DNA of 64,000 nucleotides from Saprospira grandis (GCF_027594745.1 NZ_CP110854.1:1052241-1116240); one strand, 5' to 3'; shown: positions 1-61,030, numbered from the stretch's first letter. Translations and numbers: made by a program. Notes: generated by a model from the sequence alone, not told the origin.

Positions 1-572
1 AGCACTTTGACCCCAACCGAGACGACGAATGGGTAGCGCTACAGCCCTTGGCCACCGAGGGACAGGGCAATCCCAACCTACCCAATAGAGATCCTTATGA
101 GCTCACGCAGCTCTCTATTCCCATGGGTTTGGGGGTAAAATTTGCCGTTCATAGCCACCTCAATATTGGTTTTGAGATTGGCTTTCGCAAAACATTTACG
201 GATTACCTAGATGATGTTTCTTTGAGTTATCCCTATGATGTGACCACCACTCCCGCCACCGCCCTCTACGATCAAAACCCTTATGATGGGGGCCAATTTG
301 GCAACCTCTCGGAGCAGCAACTGATGTCTGACCGCACTTATGAGTACCTAGTGACCCAAGCTGGGGGCACCTTTGGGGCCGACTTTCCTACCCAAGATGC
401 CTATGATGCAGCAGTAGCCGAAAGAGGGGGCCAAACCACTCGTGGCGATAAGGCCCAAGACTGGTACCTCATTACGGGAATCACTATTTCTTATAACTTT
501 ATTGACAACGGTTTGGTAGGCTCTCGCAAGCGCCGCCGCAAGCGCCAAGGCTGTAAATCAGCTCGTTTCTAA
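1..572 (+). CDS. DUF6089-like outer-membrane beta-barrel protein (3' part; gene starts upstream of window)
   Basis: The frame stays open back to nt 3. The C-terminal motif ...LTQLSIPMGLGVKF...FRKTFTDYLDDVS... is paralogous to the 37404..38360 protein. Stop TAA at 570-572. Confidence 0.6.
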   Translation, partial: HFDPNRDDEWVALQPLATEGQGNPNLPNRDPYELTQLSIPMGLGVKFAVHSHLNIGFEIGFRKTFTDYLDDVSLSYPYDVTTTPATALYDQNPYDGGQFGNLSEQQLMSDRTYEYLVTQAGGTFGADFPTQDAYDAAVAERGGQTTRGDKAQDWYLITGITISYNFIDNGLVGSRKRRRKRQGCKSARF

Positions 573-595
573 GCGCAAATAAAATCTAATCAATC

Positions 596-628
596 AGCCT
601 CCTTCCTTAAGAAGGGGGCTTTTTTTTG
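596..628 (+). terminator. putative intrinsic terminator (short GC stem + T8)
   Basis: Sequence cctccttccttaagaagggggc followed by tttttttt, directly after the stop codon. Confidence 0.45.
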
Positions 629-4109: not shown

Positions 4110-4270
4110 CTAGGCCAAGGCTCATTAAAGGCCCGAAGGGCCTTTGGCCTAGCGATGTGCAGGGGTGGCCGAAGGCCAGACCGAAGCGCGCAGCGCTGAA
4201 GGGCCGAGCAGACCTGCGAGCCCCGAAACGTAGCGCCTGCCGCAGGCAGGAGGCCCCAAAAAACAAAAAA
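4110..4270 (-). repeat. REP/MITE-like repeat, R orientation (copy R2)
   Basis: Contains ggcctagcgatg, ggccgaaggccagacc, gggccgagcagacctgcgagcccc, ggaggccccaaaaaa. Confidence 0.8.
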
Positions 4271-8744: not shown

Positions 8745-8905
8745 GTTTTTTTGGGGCCTCCGCTGCGGCTTCGCCTTGCGGCGCTATGTTTCGGGGCTCG
8801 CAGGTCTGCTCGGCCCTGCGCCAAATTCGCTACGCTCATTTGGCTGGGTCTGCGGCTTCGCCGCCCCCCTCCACATCGCTAGGCCAATTGGTCCCGCCCT
8901 ACCCT
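8745..8905 (+). repeat. REP/MITE-like repeat, F orientation (copy R3)
   Basis: Modules ttttggggcctccgctgcggcttcgccttgcggcgcta...ggggctcgcaggtctgctcggccctgcg...catcgctaggcc. Confidence 0.8.
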
Positions 8906-9707: not shown

Positions 9708-9880
9708 AATTGGCCCAAGGCGGGTCGGCCCTTTGGCCGAAGGCCAAACGGCCTAGCGATGCGGCGGGGTGGCCGTCAGGCCAGACCAAGGAGCCGAAGG
9801 CGACGCAGGGCCGAGCAGACCTGCGAGCCCCAAAGCGTAGCGCCGCAAGGCGAAGCCGCAGCGGAGGCCCCAAAAAAATA
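9708..9880 (-). repeat. REP/MITE-like repeat, R orientation (copy R4). It is the near-exact reverse complement of R3 and lies on the other side of queE.
   Basis: The reverse complement aligns module by module with 8745..8905. Confidence 0.8.
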
Positions 9881-12767: not shown

Positions 12768-12910
12768 TGGGGCTGCCCCGCCCTGCGGGCGGGTCGGGCT
12801 GTCTCAGGGCTCGCAGGTCTGCTCGGCCCTTCAGCGGCTTTGCCGCTTCGGTCTGGCCTTCGGCCCCCCTTGCCCATCCCTCAGCCGGGGCGCTGCGCGC
12901 CCTCTAGGTC
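12768..12910 (+). repeat. REP/MITE-like repeat, F orientation (copy R5)
   Basis: tttggggctgccccgccctgcgggcgggtcgggctg...gctcgcaggtctgctcggccc...ggtctggccttcggcc. Confidence 0.8.
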
Positions 12911-16569: not shown

Positions 16570-16735
16570 TTTTTTTGGGGCCTGCGGGCCCCTTTTGCCT
16601 TGCTGCGCTGCGGCAAGGGCCCGCCGGGCTGTTGCGGGGCTCGCAGGTCTGCTCGGCCCTGCAGCCGCCTGCGGCGGCTTGGGTCTGGCCTGCGGCCCCC
16701 CCTACACATCCCTAGGCCGGGGCCATTTTTTTCAG
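16570..16735 (+). repeat. REP/MITE-like repeat, F orientation (copy R6)
   Basis: ttttttggggcctgcgggcc...ggggctcgcaggtctgctcggccctgcagcc...ggtctggcctgcggcc...catccctaggcc. Confidence 0.8.
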
Positions 16736-17989: not shown

Positions 17990-18145
17990 ACAGCCTTTAG
18001 CCTGAAAAGGGGAGATGAGCGGCCCAGCGCTGCGCAGCGGTGGCCGCAGGCCAGACCCAGCGGGCGAAGCCCGCGCAGGGCCGAGCAGACCTGCGAGCCG
18101 CGGAGCATAGCGGCGGCCAGCGAAGCTGGCCGCGGGCCCCAAAAC
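17990..18145 (-). repeat. REP/MITE-like repeat, R orientation (copy R7)
   Basis: gggccgagcagacctgcgagccgcgg...gcgggccccaaaaccc. Confidence 0.8.
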
Positions 18146-18163
18146 CCACTGATTATAAAAAAA

Positions 18164-18901
18164 TTAAGCTAAGGTTAGCAAGCGTTGCTCCACAGATTTG
18201 AGCAGGCCAAAAAGCGACTGAAAATTGTCTAGATAATAATAGACCGACTGCATTTCGTGCTTATGAAAATGGTGTTTCAAAACGCTTTCGAGTACAAAGG
18301 GGCGGAACTCACAATTTTGGCCTTTATGGACCTGAATACTTTCGCCGAAAGAGGACAAAATGCCTGCCCCATAAATGGCTTGGCCCTGAGCATTTTTGCA
18401 AACGCCAAACTCGATAGTAAACCAATAGAGGCGTTCGAGAGCGGCCACGGCATCGGGCAGATGAGCGACTTGCAGGCCGATGCGGCCGAACTCCTGCATA
18501 AAGTCGGCATATTGGGCATTAAAGAGGAGCGGAATGTGGCCAAAAGTATCGTGAAACATATCGGGTTCCTCCAGATAATCGAGTTCCTCCATTTTTCGGA
18601 GCCAGGTAGAAGAGGGGAATCGGCGTTGGGCCAGCAGGGCAAAAAACTCCTCTACGGGAATCAGGCCGGGCACCAGCTCGATACTAAAATTCTGTTCTTT
18701 TTGGAGCAGGGGCGAAAGCTCTTTAAAATTGGGAATAGCTTGGCCATTTAGGGCCGATTGGGCGGCCTTTAGAGCGGGCCAGAGTTCGGGCACCGCCTTA
18801 TCTTCTAGATTTTCCCATTGGCGTTTGAACAAAAGTTGCCAAACGGCTTGATCTTCGGCTTGATAAGCCTCATAATTTTGCTGCATCATGATTTTGCGCA
18901 T
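18164..18901 (-). CDS. phhA: phenylalanine 4-monooxygenase (aromatic amino-acid hydroxylase)
   Basis: HEPDMFHDTFGHIPLL iron-binding motif. About 245 aa, typical of bacterial PhhA. Confidence 0.85.
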   Translation of the reverse strand: MRKIMMQQNYEAYQAEDQAVWQLLFKRQWENLEDKAVPELWPALKAAQSALNGQAIPNFKELSPLLQKEQNFSIELVPGLIPVEEFFALLAQRRFPSSTWLRKMEELDYLEEPDMFHDTFGHIPLLFNAQYADFMQEFGRIGLQVAHLPDAVAALERLYWFTIEFGVCKNAQGQAIYGAGILSSFGESIQVHKGQNCEFRPFVLESVLKHHFHKHEMQSVYYYLDNFQSLFGLLKSVEQRLLTLA

Positions 18902-18934
18902 AAAAAAACCCGCTTTCTGCTTAGAGAAAGCGGG
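18902..18934 (-). terminator. intrinsic terminator/attenuator hairpin ending 4 nt before the phhA start codon
   Basis: On the minus strand: cccgcuuucu-cuaagc-agaaagcggg (perfect 10-bp stem) followed by U7, then AUG of phhA. Confidence 0.6.
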
Positions 18935-18978
18935 CCGAATTAAAGTATAAATGTATCTTTAGACAGGCAATAGAACGC

Positions 18979-19035
18979 TTACTCTAGCGGAGGCAGAGCA
19001 GCATAATAATAGCGCTGTAATTGAGTTTGTTTCAT
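18979..19035 (-). promoter_or_regulatory. candidate leader peptide ORF (MKQTQLQRYYYAALPPLE, 18 aa) with three consecutive Tyr codons
   Basis: Translated by hand from the minus strand. ATG at 19035..19033 and TAA at 18981..18979. It lies 45 nt upstream of the terminator hairpin. Confidence 0.35.
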
Positions 19036-19155
19036 CTTTGATTATCTTAAGCGCTCTAAATCAAGCGTTTTAAGGAATAAGGGCAAAGAAAGCAGGCCTT
19101 TTGCGAAAATCCAAGTTTTTTATTAGTTTTTTGTCATTGAACTCAAATTAATCCT

Positions 19156-20160
19156 ATGCACACACATTATCACATTCGACTTTCACAGGATGGGCAACTT
19201 TGGGCAGAATTTTCATTGCCCGAGGAGGCGGAGGCTAGTCTTTTGCTCAACTCATTAGAAACGATCTTGGACCTTTATCGGGAAGAGGACATTCATTTTT
19301 TGTTTAATGAGCGAAAAATCACGGCGGGGCCTGCGCAAAGAGAGCAGGAGCAATCCATTTTAGAATTGAGTCTAGCAGAACTTTGGGGAGATTTGGATGA
19401 GGCCTTATTGGTTTTGAACGGGCAAATTTGGAAGCTCTACCTTTTGGACAGGGCCTTAGAAGGGCCTGCCGAGCCGCAGCTTTTGGAGTTAGGGCCACAA
19501 CTGCAGGAAGTTTGGCAGGAGCCTGCTTCTTTATTGGAAGAATTGACTAATATGTTGGAAATGGCGCCTTTGCCATTGGAGGAAGAGGAAGACGACAACC
19601 CTTATACCGTTCAGGAATTGGCTCTTTTTCAGACCCAGATGGAATTTAAGAAAATCCAGTTTCGTCAGTACAAAGCCTTGGGCGAAAGAGCCATGCAGCA
19701 GCTGCCCGAGGCCGAGTTATTTCGGCAATTTTCTGCTGATCAAAACAGCATAGCCATTATTGTGCAGCATCTTTGGGGCAACATGCGTTCTCGTTGGACC
19801 GACTTTTTGAACACGGATGGCGAGAAAGACTGGCGAAACAGAGACAATGAATTTGAGCTATACCTCAAGGACCGTAAAGCGGTGATGGACTATTGGGAAG
19901 AGGGCTGGTTATTTCTTTTCAATGCGCTAGACCAATTGGAGGCCAAAGACTGGGACCGCAACATCTACATTCGGGGCGAGGAGCATTATGTTTGGCAGGC
20001 GATCGATCGGCAACTGGCTCATTATAGTTATCATATTGGCCAGATTGTACTTTTTGCTCGCATCTTTAAACAAGATCCTTGGGAAAGTCTTTCTATTCCC
20101 AGAGGCAAATCGGCGGAATACAACCAAATGATGCGAGAGGAAAACGAAAGAGAAGACTAG
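19156..20160 (+). CDS. hypothetical protein with a C-terminal DinB/YfiT-like (DUF1572-like) four-helix domain and an acidic N-terminal extension
   Basis: C-terminal half reads QNSIAIIVQHLWGNMRSRWTDFL...WRNRDNEFE...HYSYHIGQIVLFARIFK. Confidence 0.45.
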   Translation: MHTHYHIRLSQDGQLWAEFSLPEEAEASLLLNSLETILDLYREEDIHFLFNERKITAGPAQREQEQSILELSLAELWGDLDEALLVLNGQIWKLYLLDRALEGPAEPQLLELGPQLQEVWQEPASLLEELTNMLEMAPLPLEEEEDDNPYTVQELALFQTQMEFKKIQFRQYKALGERAMQQLPEAELFRQFSADQNSIAIIVQHLWGNMRSRWTDFLNTDGEKDWRNRDNEFELYLKDRKAVMDYWEEGWLFLFNALDQLEAKDWDRNIYIRGEEHYVWQAIDRQLAHYSYHIGQIVLFARIFKQDPWESLSIPRGKSAEYNQMMREENERED

Positions 20161-28139: not shown

Positions 28140-28275
28140 ACCATTTTGGCCTAGCGATGCGAAAGGGGGCGGCGAAGCCGCAGACCAAGGCCGTCAGGCC
28201 GCAGGGCCAAGCAGACCTGCGAGCCCTGAAGCGTAGCGCCGCAAGGCGAAGCCGAAGCGGAGGCCCCAAAACATC
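28140..28275 (-). repeat. REP/MITE-like repeat, R orientation (copy R9). With R8 it forms an inverted pair and a roughly 360 bp quasi-palindrome.
   Basis: ttggcctagcgatgcg...gggccaagcagacctgcgagccc...ggaggccccaaaac. Confidence 0.8.
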
Positions 28276-35589: not shown

Positions 35590-35758
35590 GGGCCGAAGAA
35601 AATGGCCAAAAGAGAAAAAGACCGTTGAGCGGCTTAGCGCTGCGGAGCGGGTGGCCCGAAGGGCCAGACCAAGGCGGCTTGCCGCCGCAGGGCCGAGCAG
35701 ACCTGCGAGCCCCGCAGCATAGCGCCCCGCCGCCTGCGGCGGCGGGGAAGCCCCAAAT
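35590..35758 (-). repeat. REP/MITE-like repeat, R orientation (copy R11). Forms an inverted pair with R10.
   Basis: gggccgagcagacctgcgagccccgcagcatagcgcc...gaagccccaaattag. Confidence 0.8.
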
Positions 35759-38533: not shown

Positions 38534-38566
38534 ACAAAAAAAGCAGCTAGTTTTCACTAGCTGCTT
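38534..38566 (-). terminator. intrinsic terminator immediately 3' of tRNA-Arg
   Basis: gcagctagt/actagctgc stem. The plus-strand A7 run becomes U7 on the minus strand. Confidence 0.6.
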
Positions 38567-38569
38567 TTG

Positions 38570-38704: not shown

Positions 38705-38872
38705 AGCAAAGCCCCTCCCCCAGGCCCTATTGGCCCAGCGCTGCGGAGGGGTGGCCGAAGGCCAGACCAAAGCCGCCAAAGGCGGCTGCAGGGCCGAACA
38801 GCCCTGTGAGCCCCGCAGCATAGCGGCGGCCGACCGAGGCGAAGCCGAGCCGGCCGCGGGCCCCAAAATAAT
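38705..38872 (-). repeat. REP/MITE-like repeat, R orientation (copy R12)
   Basis: gggccgaacagccctgtgagccccgcagcatagcggcggcc...gcgggccccaaaataatt. Confidence 0.75.
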
Positions 38873-41064: not shown

Positions 41065-41230
41065 ATCTTTTGGGGCCTCAGCTGCGCTGCGCTTGCTGCG
41101 CTACGTTTCGGGGCTCGCAAGCCTGCTCGGCCCTGCGCTGCCAAAGGCAGCTTGGTCTGGCCTGACGGCCACCCCTACACATCGCTAGGCCATCTGGCCT
41201 GACGGCCAAGGCGGCTGCGCCGCCTATCCA
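41065..41230 (+). repeat. REP/MITE-like repeat, F orientation (copy R13)
   Basis: ttttggggcctcagctgcgctgcg...ggggctcgcaagcctgctcggccctgcg...ggtctggcctgacggccac...catcgctaggcc. Confidence 0.8.
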
Positions 41231-51669: not shown

Positions 51670-51818
51670 CTCGAGGCCCGAAGGGCCTCTTTTTTGGCCT
51701 AGCGATGCGGCGGGGTGGCCCGAAGGGCCAGACCAAGGAGCCGCAGGCGACGAAGGGCCGAGCAAGCCTGCGAGCCCCAAAGCGTAGCGCCCGCCGAAGG
51801 CGGGAGGCCCCAAAACAG
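51670..51818 (-). repeat. REP/MITE-like repeat, R orientation (copy R18)
   Basis: ggcctagcgatgcggcggggtggcccgaagggccagacc...gggccgagcaagcctgcgagcccc...gggaggccccaaaac. Confidence 0.8.
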
Positions 51819-58894: not shown

Positions 58895-59160
58895 TTGCTT
58901 ACTGTTTTTTTGGGGCCTCCCGCCTGCGGCGGGCGGTTACTCCCTTCGGTCGTCGAACTGCGAACTAAAGTTCTTGTTGTCGTTCCGCAGCTCGCTGCTA
59001 TTTTGGGGCCTCCGCCTCCCTTCGGTCGTCGGCGCTACGTTCCGCAGCTCGCTATTCGCTCGGCCCTTCGCCAGCTTCGCTGGCTCGGTCTGGCCTGACG
59101 GCCACTGCTGCACATCGCTAGGCCTGCGGCCCTTCGGGCCTGTAGGACGAAAAAGTTCTA
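58895..59160 (+). repeat. REP/MITE-like repeat, F orientation, long variant (copy R19, similar to R1)
   Basis: tcggtcgtcgaactgcgaact..., cgcagctcgctattcgctcggccc, ggtctggcctgacggccactgctgcacatcgctaggcc. Confidence 0.8.
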
Positions 59161-60889: not shown

Positions 60890-61030
60890 TTATGGCCGAA
60901 GGCCAAACGGCCTAGCGATGCGGCGGGGTGGCCGAAGGCCAGACCGAGGCGGCAAAGCCGCCGAAGGGCCGAGCAGACCTGCGAGCCCCAAAGCGTAGCG
61001 CCCGCCGAAGGCGGGAGGCCCCAAAAAAAA
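60890..61030 (-). repeat. REP/MITE-like repeat, R orientation (copy R20)
   Basis: ggcctagcgatgcggcggggtggccgaaggccagacc...gggccgagcagacctgcgagcccc...gggaggccccaaaaaaaa. Confidence 0.8.

What the first reader, a model, noticed from the sequence alone, without database searches (positions are those of the whole stretch)
18902..19040. Candidate Tyr-codon leader-peptide attenuator controlling phenylalanine hydroxylase (phhA)
On the minus strand, read 5' to 3': an 18-codon ORF MKQTQLQRYYYAALPPLE with three consecutive Tyr codons. Then about 45 nt, then a perfect 10-bp GC-rich hairpin (cccgcuuucu/agaaagcggg) followed by U7. The phhA AUG begins only 4 nt after the U-run. A strong intrinsic terminator abutting a start codon, preceded by a short ORF enriched in one amino acid, is the architecture of ribosome-mediated attenuation. 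The controlling residue would be Tyr, the product of PhhA. That would make Phe-to-Tyr conversion Tyr-repressible, a logic not commonly described for phhA and rarely for Bacteroidota.
Basis: partly seen in the sequence, partly recalled or inferred. Interest (0 to 1): 0.65.

Follow-up and report, generated by a model that had tools for sequence, protein, structure and literature searches.

The report
Tyrosine leader-peptide attenuator of phhA
A tiny upstream mini-gene with three tyrosine codons, followed by a terminator hairpin, looks like a classic ribosome-sensing switch that turns on a phenylalanine-to-tyrosine enzyme when tyrosine runs short. The same design recurs before this gene in over fifty related Bacteroidota genomes, and I found it in no catalogue.

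Summary
On the minus strand lie an 18-codon ORF (19035..18979, MKQTQLQRYYYAALPPLE), a 10-12 bp GC-rich hairpin (18936..18907) and U7 (18908..18902), directly before phhA. One detail is wrong: the first in-frame ATG (18901) touches the U-run, and the likely start (18889/18886) is 12-15 nt downstream, not 4 nt.

Among 86 phhA loci from Bacteroidota, 40 carry an upstream 10-30 codon ORF with at least three consecutive Tyr codons; shuffles predict 0.18. Fifty-three loci combine a Tyr leader with a terminator.

The end of the leader ORF, over its stop codon, can pair with the terminator's 5' arm as an antiterminator. It fits its own terminator better than other loci's (0/2000 permutations). Ribosome-masked folding gives the classical outcome: a stall at Tyr codons sequesters the 5' arm in 53/53 loci.

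Similar Tyr-rich leaders precede prephenate dehydrogenase (tyrA) in other metagenomic contigs. Rfam, Pfam, NCBIfam and the searchable literature hold no match.

Verdict: a new, tyrosine-specific member of the classical leader-peptide attenuator kind, widespread in Flavobacteriales and Saprospiraceae. There is no experimental proof.

The parts
19084..19091 (-). Weak candidate promoter element TTTCTTTG. It resembles the Bacteroidota -7 motif TAnnTTTG but is not an exact match. It lies 48 nt upstream of the leader ATG.
   Evidence: an exact TAnnTTTG lies within 70 nt upstream of the leader ATG in 33/53 related loci, in most of them 3-9 nt upstream, against 3.6% of random windows. The window and its close relatives L081/L082 have only this TTTG-containing variant. 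This is inference only.
18979..19035 (-). Leader ORF of 18 codons plus stop: MKQTQLQRYYYAALPPLE*.
   Evidence: The peptide is identical in L081, with one synonymous CCT>CCC change. In L082 it is MQLTTLQRYYYAALPWLE. Tyr-run leaders occur in 40/86 phhA loci, against 0.18 expected.
19003..19011 (-). Three consecutive Tyr codons (TAT TAT TAT). This is the proposed stall site that senses charged tRNA-Tyr.
   Evidence: The family uses TAT 165 times and TAC 39 times, so the codon identity is kept while the third base varies.
19012..19018 (-). P0 5' strand (ACAGCGC). It pairs with 18968..18963.
   Evidence: P0 plus P1 fold at -17.7 kcal/mol. Family-wide, own partners beat permuted partners, -8.8 against -6.1 kcal/mol, 0/2000.
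18993..19004 (-). Region 1 (AUGCUGCUCUGC), the 5' strand of the 1:2 anti-antiterminator hairpin. It lies within the footprint of a ribosome stalled on the Tyr codons.
   Evidence: the 1:2 hairpin folds at -11.3 kcal/mol. Substitutions in L081/L082 fall in its loop (18992..18989).
18975..18988 (-). Region 2 (GCUAGAGUAAGCGU). It covers the last leader codons, the stop codon and 4 nt beyond. It pairs either with region 1 or with the terminator 5' arm, where it acts as the antiterminator strand.
   Evidence: the 2:3 duplex is -14.1 kcal/mol. In the family, the partner positions cluster at -20..+5 relative to the end of the leader stop codon.
18963..18968 (-). P0 3' strand (GCCUGU).
18919..18936 (-). 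Region 3: terminator 5' arm GGCCCGCUUUCU (18936..18925) plus loop CUAAGC (18924..18919). The antiterminator sequesters 18932..18919.
   Evidence: Twelve arm nucleotides are sequestered in the Tyr-stall state, 0 in free RNA and 2 with a ribosome at the stop codon.
18907..18918 (-). Region 4: terminator 3' arm AGAAAGCGGGUU.
   Evidence: the terminator hairpin folds at -18.2 kcal/mol. Family covariation: 88% of cells paired, 12/12 pairs with changes on both sides, 0/500 shuffles.
18902..18908 (-). U7 tract of the intrinsic terminator.
18164..18901 (-). phhA ORF (Biopterin_H, phenylalanine 4-monooxygenase-like). The probable true start is 18889 or 18886.
   Evidence: PF00351, E = 6e-39. NF008877 scores 244.8 bits against a cut-off of 247; homologues align from residue 5-6.

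Best explanation
This is a ribosome-mediated, leader-peptide transcription attenuator that senses charged tRNA-Tyr and controls phhA.

Transcription starts upstream of the 18-codon leader ORF. What happens next depends on where the ribosome sits.

- Tyr plentiful. The ribosome runs to the leader stop codon (18981-18979) and covers region 2 (18988..18975). The terminator (18936..18907 plus U7) then forms and transcription stops just before phhA.
- No ribosome loaded. Regions 1 and 2 pair, closed by helix P0, and the terminator again forms.
- Tyr-tRNA scarce. The ribosome stalls on the three Tyr codons (19011..19003) and covers region 1 (19004..18993). Region 2 is free while the terminator's 5' arm emerges. 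The two pair as an antiterminator (18988..18976 with 18932..18919). RNA polymerase reads through and PhhA is made. PhhA converts Phe to Tyr.

Shown from sequence and comparison: the anatomy, its conservation, the co-variation of the pairing partners, and the association with phhA or phhAB.

Inferred: translation of the leader, the stall, kinetic coupling with the polymerase, the response to Tyr, and the promoter position in this genome.
For: Anatomy.
- All parts are present in the window. Energies are 1:2 = -11.3, 2:3 = -14.1 (duplex) to -16.4 (span), and 3:4 = -18.2 kcal/mol.

Conservation of the leader.
- Close relatives keep the leader, and their substitutions are confined to synonymous sites and hairpin loops.
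- 40/86 phhA upstream regions hold a mini-ORF with a run of at least three Tyr. Dinucleotide shuffles give 0.18 and other 250-nt windows of the same loci give 4/3812. No other amino acid is enriched.
- 53 loci have a leader with at least two consecutive Tyr plus a terminator. The geometry is stereotyped: leader 14-25 codons, stop to terminator 20-42 nt, U-run to phhA start median 17 nt.

Alternative pairings.
- Antiterminator: own leader end with own terminator 5' arm averages -12.9 kcal/mol, against -9.5 +/- 0.34 for permuted partners (0/2000). The window scores -14.7, z = -2.05.
- P0 and P1 pairings are likewise locus-specific, 0/2000 each.
- The transcript was folded up to the terminator loop with a ribosome mask. 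At least 6 nt of the 5' arm are sequestered in 53/53 loci with a Tyr stall, in 21/53 as free RNA, and in 19/53 with a ribosome at the stop codon. The window gives 12, 0 and 2 nt.
- Terminator helix: 88% of cells paired, all 12 pairs with double changes, 0/500 shuffles.
- Antiterminator on a sequence-only alignment: 70% paired at register 0 and 63% at +1, against 20-49% at other slides. Cells with double changes number 33 against 15 +/- 3.3.

Promoter.
- The motif TAnnTTTG lies upstream of the leader ATG in 33/53 loci, against 3.6% of random windows.

Functional logic.
- Similar Tyr-rich leaders (MN.SFSTYYYFYY...) with a terminator precede prephenate dehydrogenase in five metagenomic contigs.
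- phhB (Pterin_4a) lies next to phhA in 22/56 leader-bearing loci and 0/30 leaderless loci. The homogentisate-pathway genes hppD and FAH are next to phhA only in one leaderless locus.
- Published fitness data show that PAH supplies Tyr in Dyella and contributes in the Bacteroidota member Echinicola (PMC7311316).
Against: - There is no transcript, ribosome or reporter data for any member.
- Once the 3' arm is transcribed, the terminator is the thermodynamic winner in every ribosome state. The switch therefore depends on unproven kinetic coupling. From memory, the same is true of E. coli trp.
- The window has only three Tyr codons and no exact Bacteroidota promoter motif upstream of the leader.
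- In a fixed-register alignment, support for the antiterminator is modest. The count of pairs with double changes is not above shuffles (141/500), because the register shifts by 1 nt among loci.
- PhhA scores just under the NCBIfam equivalog cut-offs (244.8 against 247), so its substrate is inferred.
- I could not tell whether this genome also has tyrA. None lies in the window.
- About 30 of 86 phhA loci lack the element.
Confidence: 0.85

Rival explanations
1. Translational rather than transcriptional control. The hairpin, 0-15 nt before the phhA start codon, mainly blocks ribosome loading on phhA in an SD-less Bacteroidota mRNA. Leader translation remodels that structure, and the U-run is incidental or secondary.
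For: The hairpin ends 0-12 nt from the start codon in the window and a median of 17 nt from it in the family. In the antiterminated fold the A/G-rich 3' arm and the U-run are single-stranded just upstream of the AUG.
Against: In 53 of the 58 records with a candidate leader ORF and a terminator-type hairpin, a leader with at least two consecutive Tyr codons comes with a stem followed by a U-rich tail, the signature of an intrinsic terminator. Canonical terminators are otherwise very rare in this window, 2 in 64 kb. The distance to phhA ranges from 2 to 84 nt, which fits termination better than occlusion of the start site. The two effects could coexist.
Confidence: 0.07
2. An independent small gene. 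The mini-ORF or small RNA with its own terminator is a separate transcription unit, and phhA has its own promoter. The juxtaposition carries no regulatory meaning.
For: Attenuated leader transcripts can exist as stable small RNAs. No promoter has been mapped in this genome.
Against: Only 0-15 nt separate the U-run from the phhA start, which leaves no room for a promoter. The leader-terminator-phhA arrangement is kept across orders while the peptide varies outside the Tyr run. The leader's 3' end co-varies with the terminator's 5' arm. No protein family matches the peptides.
Confidence: 0.04
3. An attenuator driven by a trans-acting factor, such as an RNA-binding protein or a T-box-like tRNA contact, rather than by the translating ribosome.
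For: The weak Rfam similarities are all to terminator-containing leaders: PyrR, PyrG leader, Trp leader.
Against: All those hits are far below the gathering scores, for example Trp_leader 18.1 against 41 and PyrR 18.9 against 54. There is no T-box hit. The conserved feature is an in-frame run of Tyr codons with synonymous TAT/TAC variation inside an ORF of conserved length whose stop codon overlaps the antiterminator strand. That points to decoding, not to a protein or tRNA binding site.
Confidence: 0.03
4. Chance co-occurrence of an AT-rich TATTATTAT repeat and a hairpin.
For: TAT repeats are low-complexity sequence in a 47% GC genome.
Against: Shuffles predict 0.18 regions with a YYY mini-ORF, and 40 are observed. 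Control windows give 4/3812.
Confidence: 0.01

Closest known systems
Classical leader-peptide attenuators of Proteobacteria: trpL, pheL, hisL, thrL, leuL, ilvL. Rfam examples are Trp_leader RF00513 and Phe_leader.
   Same: The layout has four regions. A short ORF carries tandem codons for the regulatory amino acid. A 1:2 hairpin and a 2:3 antiterminator are mutually exclusive with a 3:4 intrinsic terminator. The stop codon is positioned so that a terminating ribosome masks region 2. From memory, the energies resemble those of E. coli trp, about -11, -12 and -20 kcal/mol. Here they are -11.3, -14.1 and -18.2.
   Different: The sensed amino acid is Tyr, for which I know of no catalogued leader. 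The target is an amino-acid hydroxylase, not a chorismate-pathway operon. There is no sequence or covariance-model similarity: Trp_leader scores 18.1 bits against a gathering score of 41. The host is a different phylum, with SD-less translation and a TAnnTTTG promoter that often lies only 3-9 nt from the leader ATG.
Bacteroidota leader peptides: the Bacteroid-trp motif (Weinberg 2010) and the trpE, pheA, hisG and ilvE leaders of Flavobacterium psychrophilum (PMC9723704, supplement D9).
   Same: Same phylum and the same style of leader. Compare M..NNT-WWW-N... for trpE with M..NT-YYYY-... here. Leaders are 18-27 codons, followed by a CCCG-rich terminator and a U-run just before the gene.
   Different: Those control Trp, Phe(/Tyr), His and branched-chain biosynthetic operons. 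The pheA leader mixes F, Y and W. The phhA leader has a pure Tyr run. In F. psychrophilum, phhA is a long 584-aa form with a transcription start site 20 nt upstream and no leader. No Rfam family hits the window region or 20 related loci.
Tyr-specific T-box leaders of Firmicutes (tyrS and related genes).
   Same: Same physiological signal, the charging level of tRNA-Tyr. Same output, a choice between terminator and antiterminator.
   Different: A T-box binds uncharged tRNA directly and needs no translation. No T-box match was found here. Here the sensor is a translating ribosome.
PhhR/TyrR and Lrp/AsnC-type control of phhAB(C) in Proteobacteria (PMC1173090).
   Same: Same regulated enzyme pair, phenylalanine hydroxylase and in many loci pterin-4a-carbinolamine dehydratase.
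   Different: There a DNA-binding protein drives phhABC as part of a Phe/Tyr catabolic pathway; PhhR is an activator acting at a sigma-54 promoter (PMC1173090). Here the control is repressed by Tyr sufficiency, which is biosynthetic logic. Leader-bearing loci have no catabolic neighbours.

Membership tests
Ribosome-mediated (leader-peptide) transcription attenuators | A short translatable ORF lies upstream of the regulated gene, on the same strand. | tested here: met
   ORF 19035..18979 of 18 codons with an ATG and an A-rich context. Family leaders are 14-25 codons.
Ribosome-mediated (leader-peptide) transcription attenuators | Tandem or enriched codons of the regulatory amino acid, conserved as codons and not only as nucleotides. 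| tested here: met
   YYY in the window. 40/86 loci have a run of at least three Tyr, against 0.18 expected. TAT 165 and TAC 39 are interchanged.
Ribosome-mediated (leader-peptide) transcription attenuators | An intrinsic terminator lies between the leader ORF and the structural gene. | tested here: met
   A 12-bp stem plus U7 at 18936..18902. Family helix: 88% paired, 12/12 pairs with double changes, 0/500 shuffles.
Ribosome-mediated (leader-peptide) transcription attenuators | An antiterminator is mutually exclusive with the terminator. It is formed by the terminator 5' arm and a segment at the leader's 3' end that a terminating ribosome would cover. | tested here: met
   18988..18976 pairs with 18932..18919, -14.1 kcal/mol. 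Own against permuted partners 0/2000. Partner positions fall at -20..+5 from the end of the stop codon. A fixed-register alignment gives only moderate covariation.
Ribosome-mediated (leader-peptide) transcription attenuators | An anti-antiterminator (1:2) pairing has its 5' strand inside the footprint of a ribosome stalled at the regulatory codons. | tested here: met
   19004..18993 pairs with 18988..18975, -11.3 kcal/mol. Region 1 overlaps the last two bases of the final Tyr codon (19005..19003) and continues downstream. Family P1 own against permuted 0/2000.
Ribosome-mediated (leader-peptide) transcription attenuators | The promoter lies upstream of the leader, with none between the terminator and the gene. 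| tested here: inconclusive
   No room for a promoter after the hairpin, 0-15 nt. The family has TAnnTTTG upstream of the leader in 33/53 loci. The window has only the imperfect TTTCTTTG at 19091..19084. No transcription start site data exist.
Ribosome-mediated (leader-peptide) transcription attenuators | The regulated gene supplies the amino acid that is sensed. | tested here: met
   The downstream gene is Biopterin_H / phenylalanine 4-monooxygenase-like, whose product is Tyr. Similar Tyr-rich leaders precede prephenate dehydrogenase. PAH is needed for Tyr supply in published fitness data (PMC7311316). NCBIfam scores are just below the cut-off, so the enzyme's specificity is inferred.
Ribosome-mediated (leader-peptide) transcription attenuators | The leader is translated, and read-through rises when the cognate tRNA is undercharged. 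| not testable with these tools
   Needs ribosome profiling, Term-seq or reporter fusions with and without Tyr.
Curated Rfam leader families (Trp_leader, PyrR, PyrG_leader, T-box and others) | A covariance-model score at or above the family's gathering threshold. | tested here: not met
   Best hits are 18-20 bits against gathering scores of 41-65. No gathering-level hit in 20 related loci.
Curated leader-peptide protein families (NCBIfam, Pfam) | A profile-HMM match of the leader peptide. | tested here: not met
   Seven family leader peptides of 20-25 aa gave no hit at E <= 10. The 18-aa window peptide is below the tool's length limit.

The most novel reading that the evidence does not exclude
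Bacteroidota, at least Flavobacteriales and Saprospiraceae, carry a so far uncatalogued tyrosine-specific class of leader-peptide attenuators, a 'tyrL'. It gates either of the two alternative last steps to tyrosine, phhA(B) or tyrA. If so, the small bacterial phenylalanine hydroxylase in these lineages is primarily a Tyr-biosynthetic enzyme, induced when tRNA-Tyr is undercharged, and not a catabolic one.
Probability: 0.6. Interest if true: 0.6.

Novelty: new member of a known kind. Interest (0 to 1): 0.5.

Why it matters
As far as I know, Tyr has no catalogued leader-peptide attenuator, unlike Trp, Phe, His, Thr, Leu and Ile/Val; I found none in Rfam, NCBIfam, Pfam or the searchable literature. 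This element would fill that gap with more than 50 natural variants, enough for an Rfam-type family.

It also gives a regulatory argument, independent of sequence homology, that PhhA in these Bacteroidota serves tyrosine supply. That agrees with, and extends, the fitness data for Echinicola and Dyella (PMC7311316). It should improve pathway-gap annotation in genomes that seem to lack tyrA.

The many leaders whose ATG lies 3-9 nt from a TAnnTTTG promoter motif offer a test case. They could show how ribosome-polymerase coupling works on nearly leaderless, SD-less mRNAs.

Tried and rejected
- Rfam E-value scan of 18700-19400 and gathering scan of 20 related loci found only sub-threshold, terminator-driven hits.
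- MFE folding of the complete leader with ribosome masks was uninformative. The terminator wins in every state once its 3' arm is present. I replaced it with folding of the nascent transcript up to the terminator loop.
- RNAalifold on the MAFFT alignment recovered only the terminator. The upstream helices are not in register in MAFFT or in the sequence-only HMM alignment. I therefore tested them without an alignment, by own-versus-permuted duplex energies. The fixed-register count for the antiterminator is only moderately supportive. I did not build a structure-fitted covariance model, because counts made on it would be biased towards the structure.
- The metagenome pattern scan returned mostly chance matches, 109 of 120. 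After filtering for a mini-ORF plus a terminator, 11 remained. Five of these precede phhA, five precede tyrA and one is cut off by the contig end.
- A bulk Pfam scan of all neighbouring ORFs was abandoned as impractical. I replaced it with targeted tblastn for HPPD, FAH, PDH and PCD.
- tblastn for tyrA and phhB in the window found nothing meaningful. This says nothing about the rest of the genome.
- Ten literature searches found no description of a Tyr leader or of phhA attenuation. Lopatovskaya et al. 2010 (Mol Biol 44:128), a survey of attenuators that includes Bacteroidetes, is not held and could not be checked.
- I considered and rejected a RiPP or functional small-protein reading of the mini-ORF. 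Only the Tyr run and the RNA-pairing segments are conserved.

Full report
**1. What is in the sequence**

Read on the minus strand, the 254-nt gap between phhA and the divergent DUF1572/DinB gene (19156..20160, + strand) contains the following.
- An 18-codon ORF, ATG 19035 to TAA 18981-18979, translating to MKQTQLQRYYYAALPPLE. Three TAT codons lie at 19011..19003.
- A 42-44 nt spacer.
- A hairpin with a perfect 10-bp core, CCCGCUUUCU/AGAAAGCGGG, that extends to 12 pairs (18936..18907), with loop CUAAGC.
- Seven U at 18908..18902.

The first in-frame ATG of the phhA ORF (18901) touches the U-run. Homologues align only from residue 5-6, and the four intervening codons change non-synonymously in close relatives. 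The real start is probably 18889 or 18886.

The downstream protein is Biopterin_H (E = 6e-39). Its best NCBIfam match is phenylalanine 4-monooxygenase, just under the curated cut-off (244.8 against 247 bits).

The hairpin is one of only two canonical strong terminators in the whole 64-kb window. The mini-ORF is the only intergenic one of 579 that has YYY. Because the upstream gene is divergent, the hairpin does not end another gene.

**2. Conservation**

A scan of one genome per species returned 80 phhA loci at 44-51% protein identity. They come from Saprospiraceae, Flavobacteriaceae, Crocinitomicaceae, Fluviicola, Vicingaceae, Schleiferiaceae, Balneolaceae and others. Forty-eight have a strong terminator-like hairpin just upstream of phhA, often with arms GCCCGGUUC/GAAYCGGGC. 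Most of those have a 14-25 codon ORF with YYY to YYYYY about 120-150 nt upstream, with consensus M..(N)T-YYYY.

Closer relatives were fetched through the protein database.
- L081 (96% identity) has the identical leader peptide with one synonymous change.
- L082 (87%) reads MQLTTLQRYYYAALPWLE. Its substitutions are confined to the N-terminal codons, the loop of the 1:2 hairpin and the terminator loop.
- L083-L086 (60-65%) read MNIATTYYYYYRTDG... and MNFSATYYNYYYWAI..., with compensatory changes in the terminator (CCCCCCUUUCU/AGAAAGGGGG and CCCCCUCUUCC/GGAAGAGGGG).

The statistics are clear. Forty of 86 upstream regions carry an ATG mini-ORF of 10-30 codons with at least three consecutive Tyr. 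Dinucleotide shuffles give 0.18 (maximum 3), and other windows of the same loci give 4 of 3812. No other amino acid shows such runs.

Fifty-three loci combine a leader containing YY or longer with a terminator. Leader length is 14-25 codons, median 19. Stop to terminator is 20-42 nt. U-run to phhA start has a median of 17 nt. TAT and TAC are interchanged (165 and 39), which indicates selection on the codon rather than on the nucleotide string.

**3. Alternative structures**

In nearly every locus the segment most complementary to the terminator's 5' arm lies in the last codons of the leader and over its stop codon. It changes together with the arm. Examples, written as arm and leader segment:
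- AACCGGUUUCC with AGGGGGCCGA
- GAACCGUUCCCGAA with CCGGGAAC
- AAACCUCUG with GCAGAGGA

Duplex energies were compared between a locus's own partner and permuted partners.
- Antiterminator: -12.9 against -9.5 +/- 0.34 kcal/mol, 0/2000 permutations. The window scores -14.7, z = -2.05.
- Hairpin between the segment just after the Tyr run and the leader's 3' end (regions 1:2): 0/2000.
- Closing helix P0, between the codons around the Tyr run and the spacer after the stop codon: 0/2000.

I folded the nascent transcript up to the terminator loop with a 30-nt ribosome mask. At least 6 nt of the 5' arm are sequestered in 53/53 loci when the ribosome sits on the Tyr codons. The figure is 21/53 without a ribosome and 19/53 with the ribosome at the stop codon. 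The window gives the cleanest pattern: 12, 0 and 2 nt.

Window coordinates and energies:
- 1:2 pairing, 19004..18993 with 18988..18975, -11.3 kcal/mol.
- 2:3 pairing, 18988..18976 with 18932..18919, -14.1 (duplex) or -16.4 (span).
- 3:4 pairing, 18936..18925 with 18918..18907, -18.2.

Once the 3' arm exists, the terminator is always the most stable fold. The decision must therefore be kinetic, as in the classical model.

Formal pair counts were made on a sequence-only HMM alignment, which is not fitted to any structure.
- Terminator: 88% of cells paired, 12/12 pairs with double changes, 0/500 shuffles, and a sharp peak against slid controls.
- Antiterminator: 70% paired at register 0 and 63% at +1, because loci differ by one nucleotide in register. 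Other slides give 20-49%. Cells with double changes number 33 against 15 +/- 3.3. The count of pairs with double changes is not significant.

**4. Promoter**

An exact Bacteroidota -7 motif, TAnnTTTG, lies within 70 nt upstream of the leader ATG in 33/53 loci, against 3.6% of random windows. It mostly ends 3-9 nt before the ATG. This suggests nearly leaderless leader mRNAs. The window and its nearest relatives have only TTTCTTTG, 48 nt upstream (19091..19084), so the promoter here is unresolved. The 0-15 nt between the U-run and the phhA start leave no room for a promoter downstream of the hairpin.

**5. Functional logic**

A metagenome pattern scan gave mostly chance hits. After filtering, eleven elements remained.
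- Five precede PhhA homologues.
- Five carry a Tyr-rich leader (MN.SFSTYYYFYYPVITSRNCSNMF), a matching antiterminator (UCGGAACNG with CGGUUCCGA) and a terminator upstream of a prephenate dehydrogenase gene with PDH_N and PDH_C domains.
- One further copy of that leader (L104) is cut off by the contig end, so its downstream gene is unseen.

The same device therefore gates both alternative last steps to Tyr.

Neighbouring genes point the same way.
- phhB (Pterin_4a) lies beside phhA in 22/56 leader-bearing loci and 0/30 leaderless loci.
- The catabolic genes hppD and FAH flank phhA only in one leaderless locus (L054).
- tyrA flanks phhA only in leaderless L088 and L089.

Published fitness data show that PAH is the Tyr source in Dyella and contributes in the Bacteroidota member Echinicola vietnamensis (PMC7311316).

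**6. Comparison with what is known**

Mechanistically this is a textbook leader-peptide attenuator. Leader peptides for trpE (MNTFLNNTWWWNNLRQTS), pheA, hisG and ilvE are reported for Flavobacterium psychrophilum. In that organism phhA is a long form without a leader (PMC9723704 supplement).

I found no record of a Tyr leader or of phhA attenuation.
- No Rfam family reaches its threshold on the window or on 20 related loci.
- No NCBIfam or Pfam model matches the leader peptides.
- Ten full-text searches found nothing.
- One relevant non-open paper, Lopatovskaya et al. 2010, could not be read.

In Proteobacteria, protein regulators (PhhR, and possibly Lrp/AsnC-type proteins) control phhA as part of Phe/Tyr catabolism (PMC1173090). 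That is the opposite logic.

**7. Verdict**

The best explanation is a Tyr-tRNA-sensing, ribosome-mediated transcription attenuator (confidence about 0.85, all in silico). It is a new member, defined by a new amino-acid specificity and a new target gene, of a well-known kind. It is widespread in Flavobacteriales and Saprospiraceae and absent from the Balneolaceae and Schleiferiaceae loci sampled.

Noticed in passing
window 17991..18151, with further copies at 799-880, 4146-4261, 8749-8821, 9749-9875, 12808-12887, 16621-16719, 28200-28272, 35626-35724, 38732-38868, 41068-41191, 51696-51816, 59001-59124 and 60908-61026: A dispersed repeat of about 125 nt and 70-80% GC, in a 46.9% GC window. There are at least 14 copies at 72-82% identity, in both orientations. 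I did not check where the copies lie relative to genes; one begins 13 nt downstream of the phhA stop codon. There is no Rfam match. The 96%-identical relative L081 has a different gene downstream of phhA, so the element may be mobile.
   Followed up: partly
L156:2462-2601(-), L165:258-394(+), L173:2980-3116(-), L183:2687-2823(-), L199:448-587(+); L104 is cut off: A 25-codon Tyr/Phe-rich leader (MN.SFSTYYYFYYPVITSRNCSNMF), with an antiterminator and a terminator, lies upstream of prephenate dehydrogenase (tyrA) in metagenomic contigs. It is a sister of the phhA Tyr leader.
   Followed up: partly
Related loci, for example L013, L027, L033, L065, L070 and L080: 3-9 nt upstream of the leader ATG: The Bacteroidota promoter motif TAnnTTTG ends only 3-9 nt before the leader start codon in most loci. 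The leader mRNAs would then be leaderless or nearly so. That is an unusual setting for ribosome-polymerase coupling.
   Followed up: no
L008, L012, L017, L020, L026, L027, L029, L031, L033, L037, L038, L040, L045, L059, L062, L063, L065, L066, L069-L072: A pterin-4a-carbinolamine dehydratase gene (phhB, PF01329) lies within 3 kb of phhA in 22 of 56 leader-bearing loci and in none of 30 leaderless loci. In about a dozen of them an ORF of 75-85 aa overlaps or directly follows the phhA stop codon; four such ORFs were confirmed as Pterin_4a by Pfam. The window has no phhB.
   Followed up: partly
L088:3778-4635(-), L089:863-1720(-), L054: Leaderless phhA genes sit in different contexts. In L088 and L089, the 58-59% identity relatives, phhA is convergent with tyrA (PDH). 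In L054 it lies next to hppD and fumarylacetoacetase. This suggests two regulatory or physiological classes of small PhhA.
   Followed up: partly
window 18902..18886 and many related loci, immediately after the terminator: The sequence UUUUUUUAUGC..AAAA recurs straight after the terminator in distant taxa, including the window, L013, L014, L020, L041, L049, L059, L062 and L075. The ATG is not consistently in frame with phhA. Its meaning is unknown. It could be part of the A/U-rich translation initiation region.
   Followed up: no
window 556..626 (+) and window 38568..38539 (-): Two other intrinsic-terminator-like hairpins. AGCCTCCTTCCTTAAGAAGGGGGCTTTTTTT was a partial hit of the sequence model. 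AAAAGCAGCTAGTGAAAACTAGCTGCTTTT plus a T-run is the only other strong canonical terminator in the window.
   Followed up: no
window 19156..20160 (+); L081-L085: A DUF1572/DinB-family gene is divergently transcribed from the phhA leader in the window and in the relatives L081-L085, down to about 63% PhhA identity. This is conserved synteny of unknown significance.
   Followed up: no
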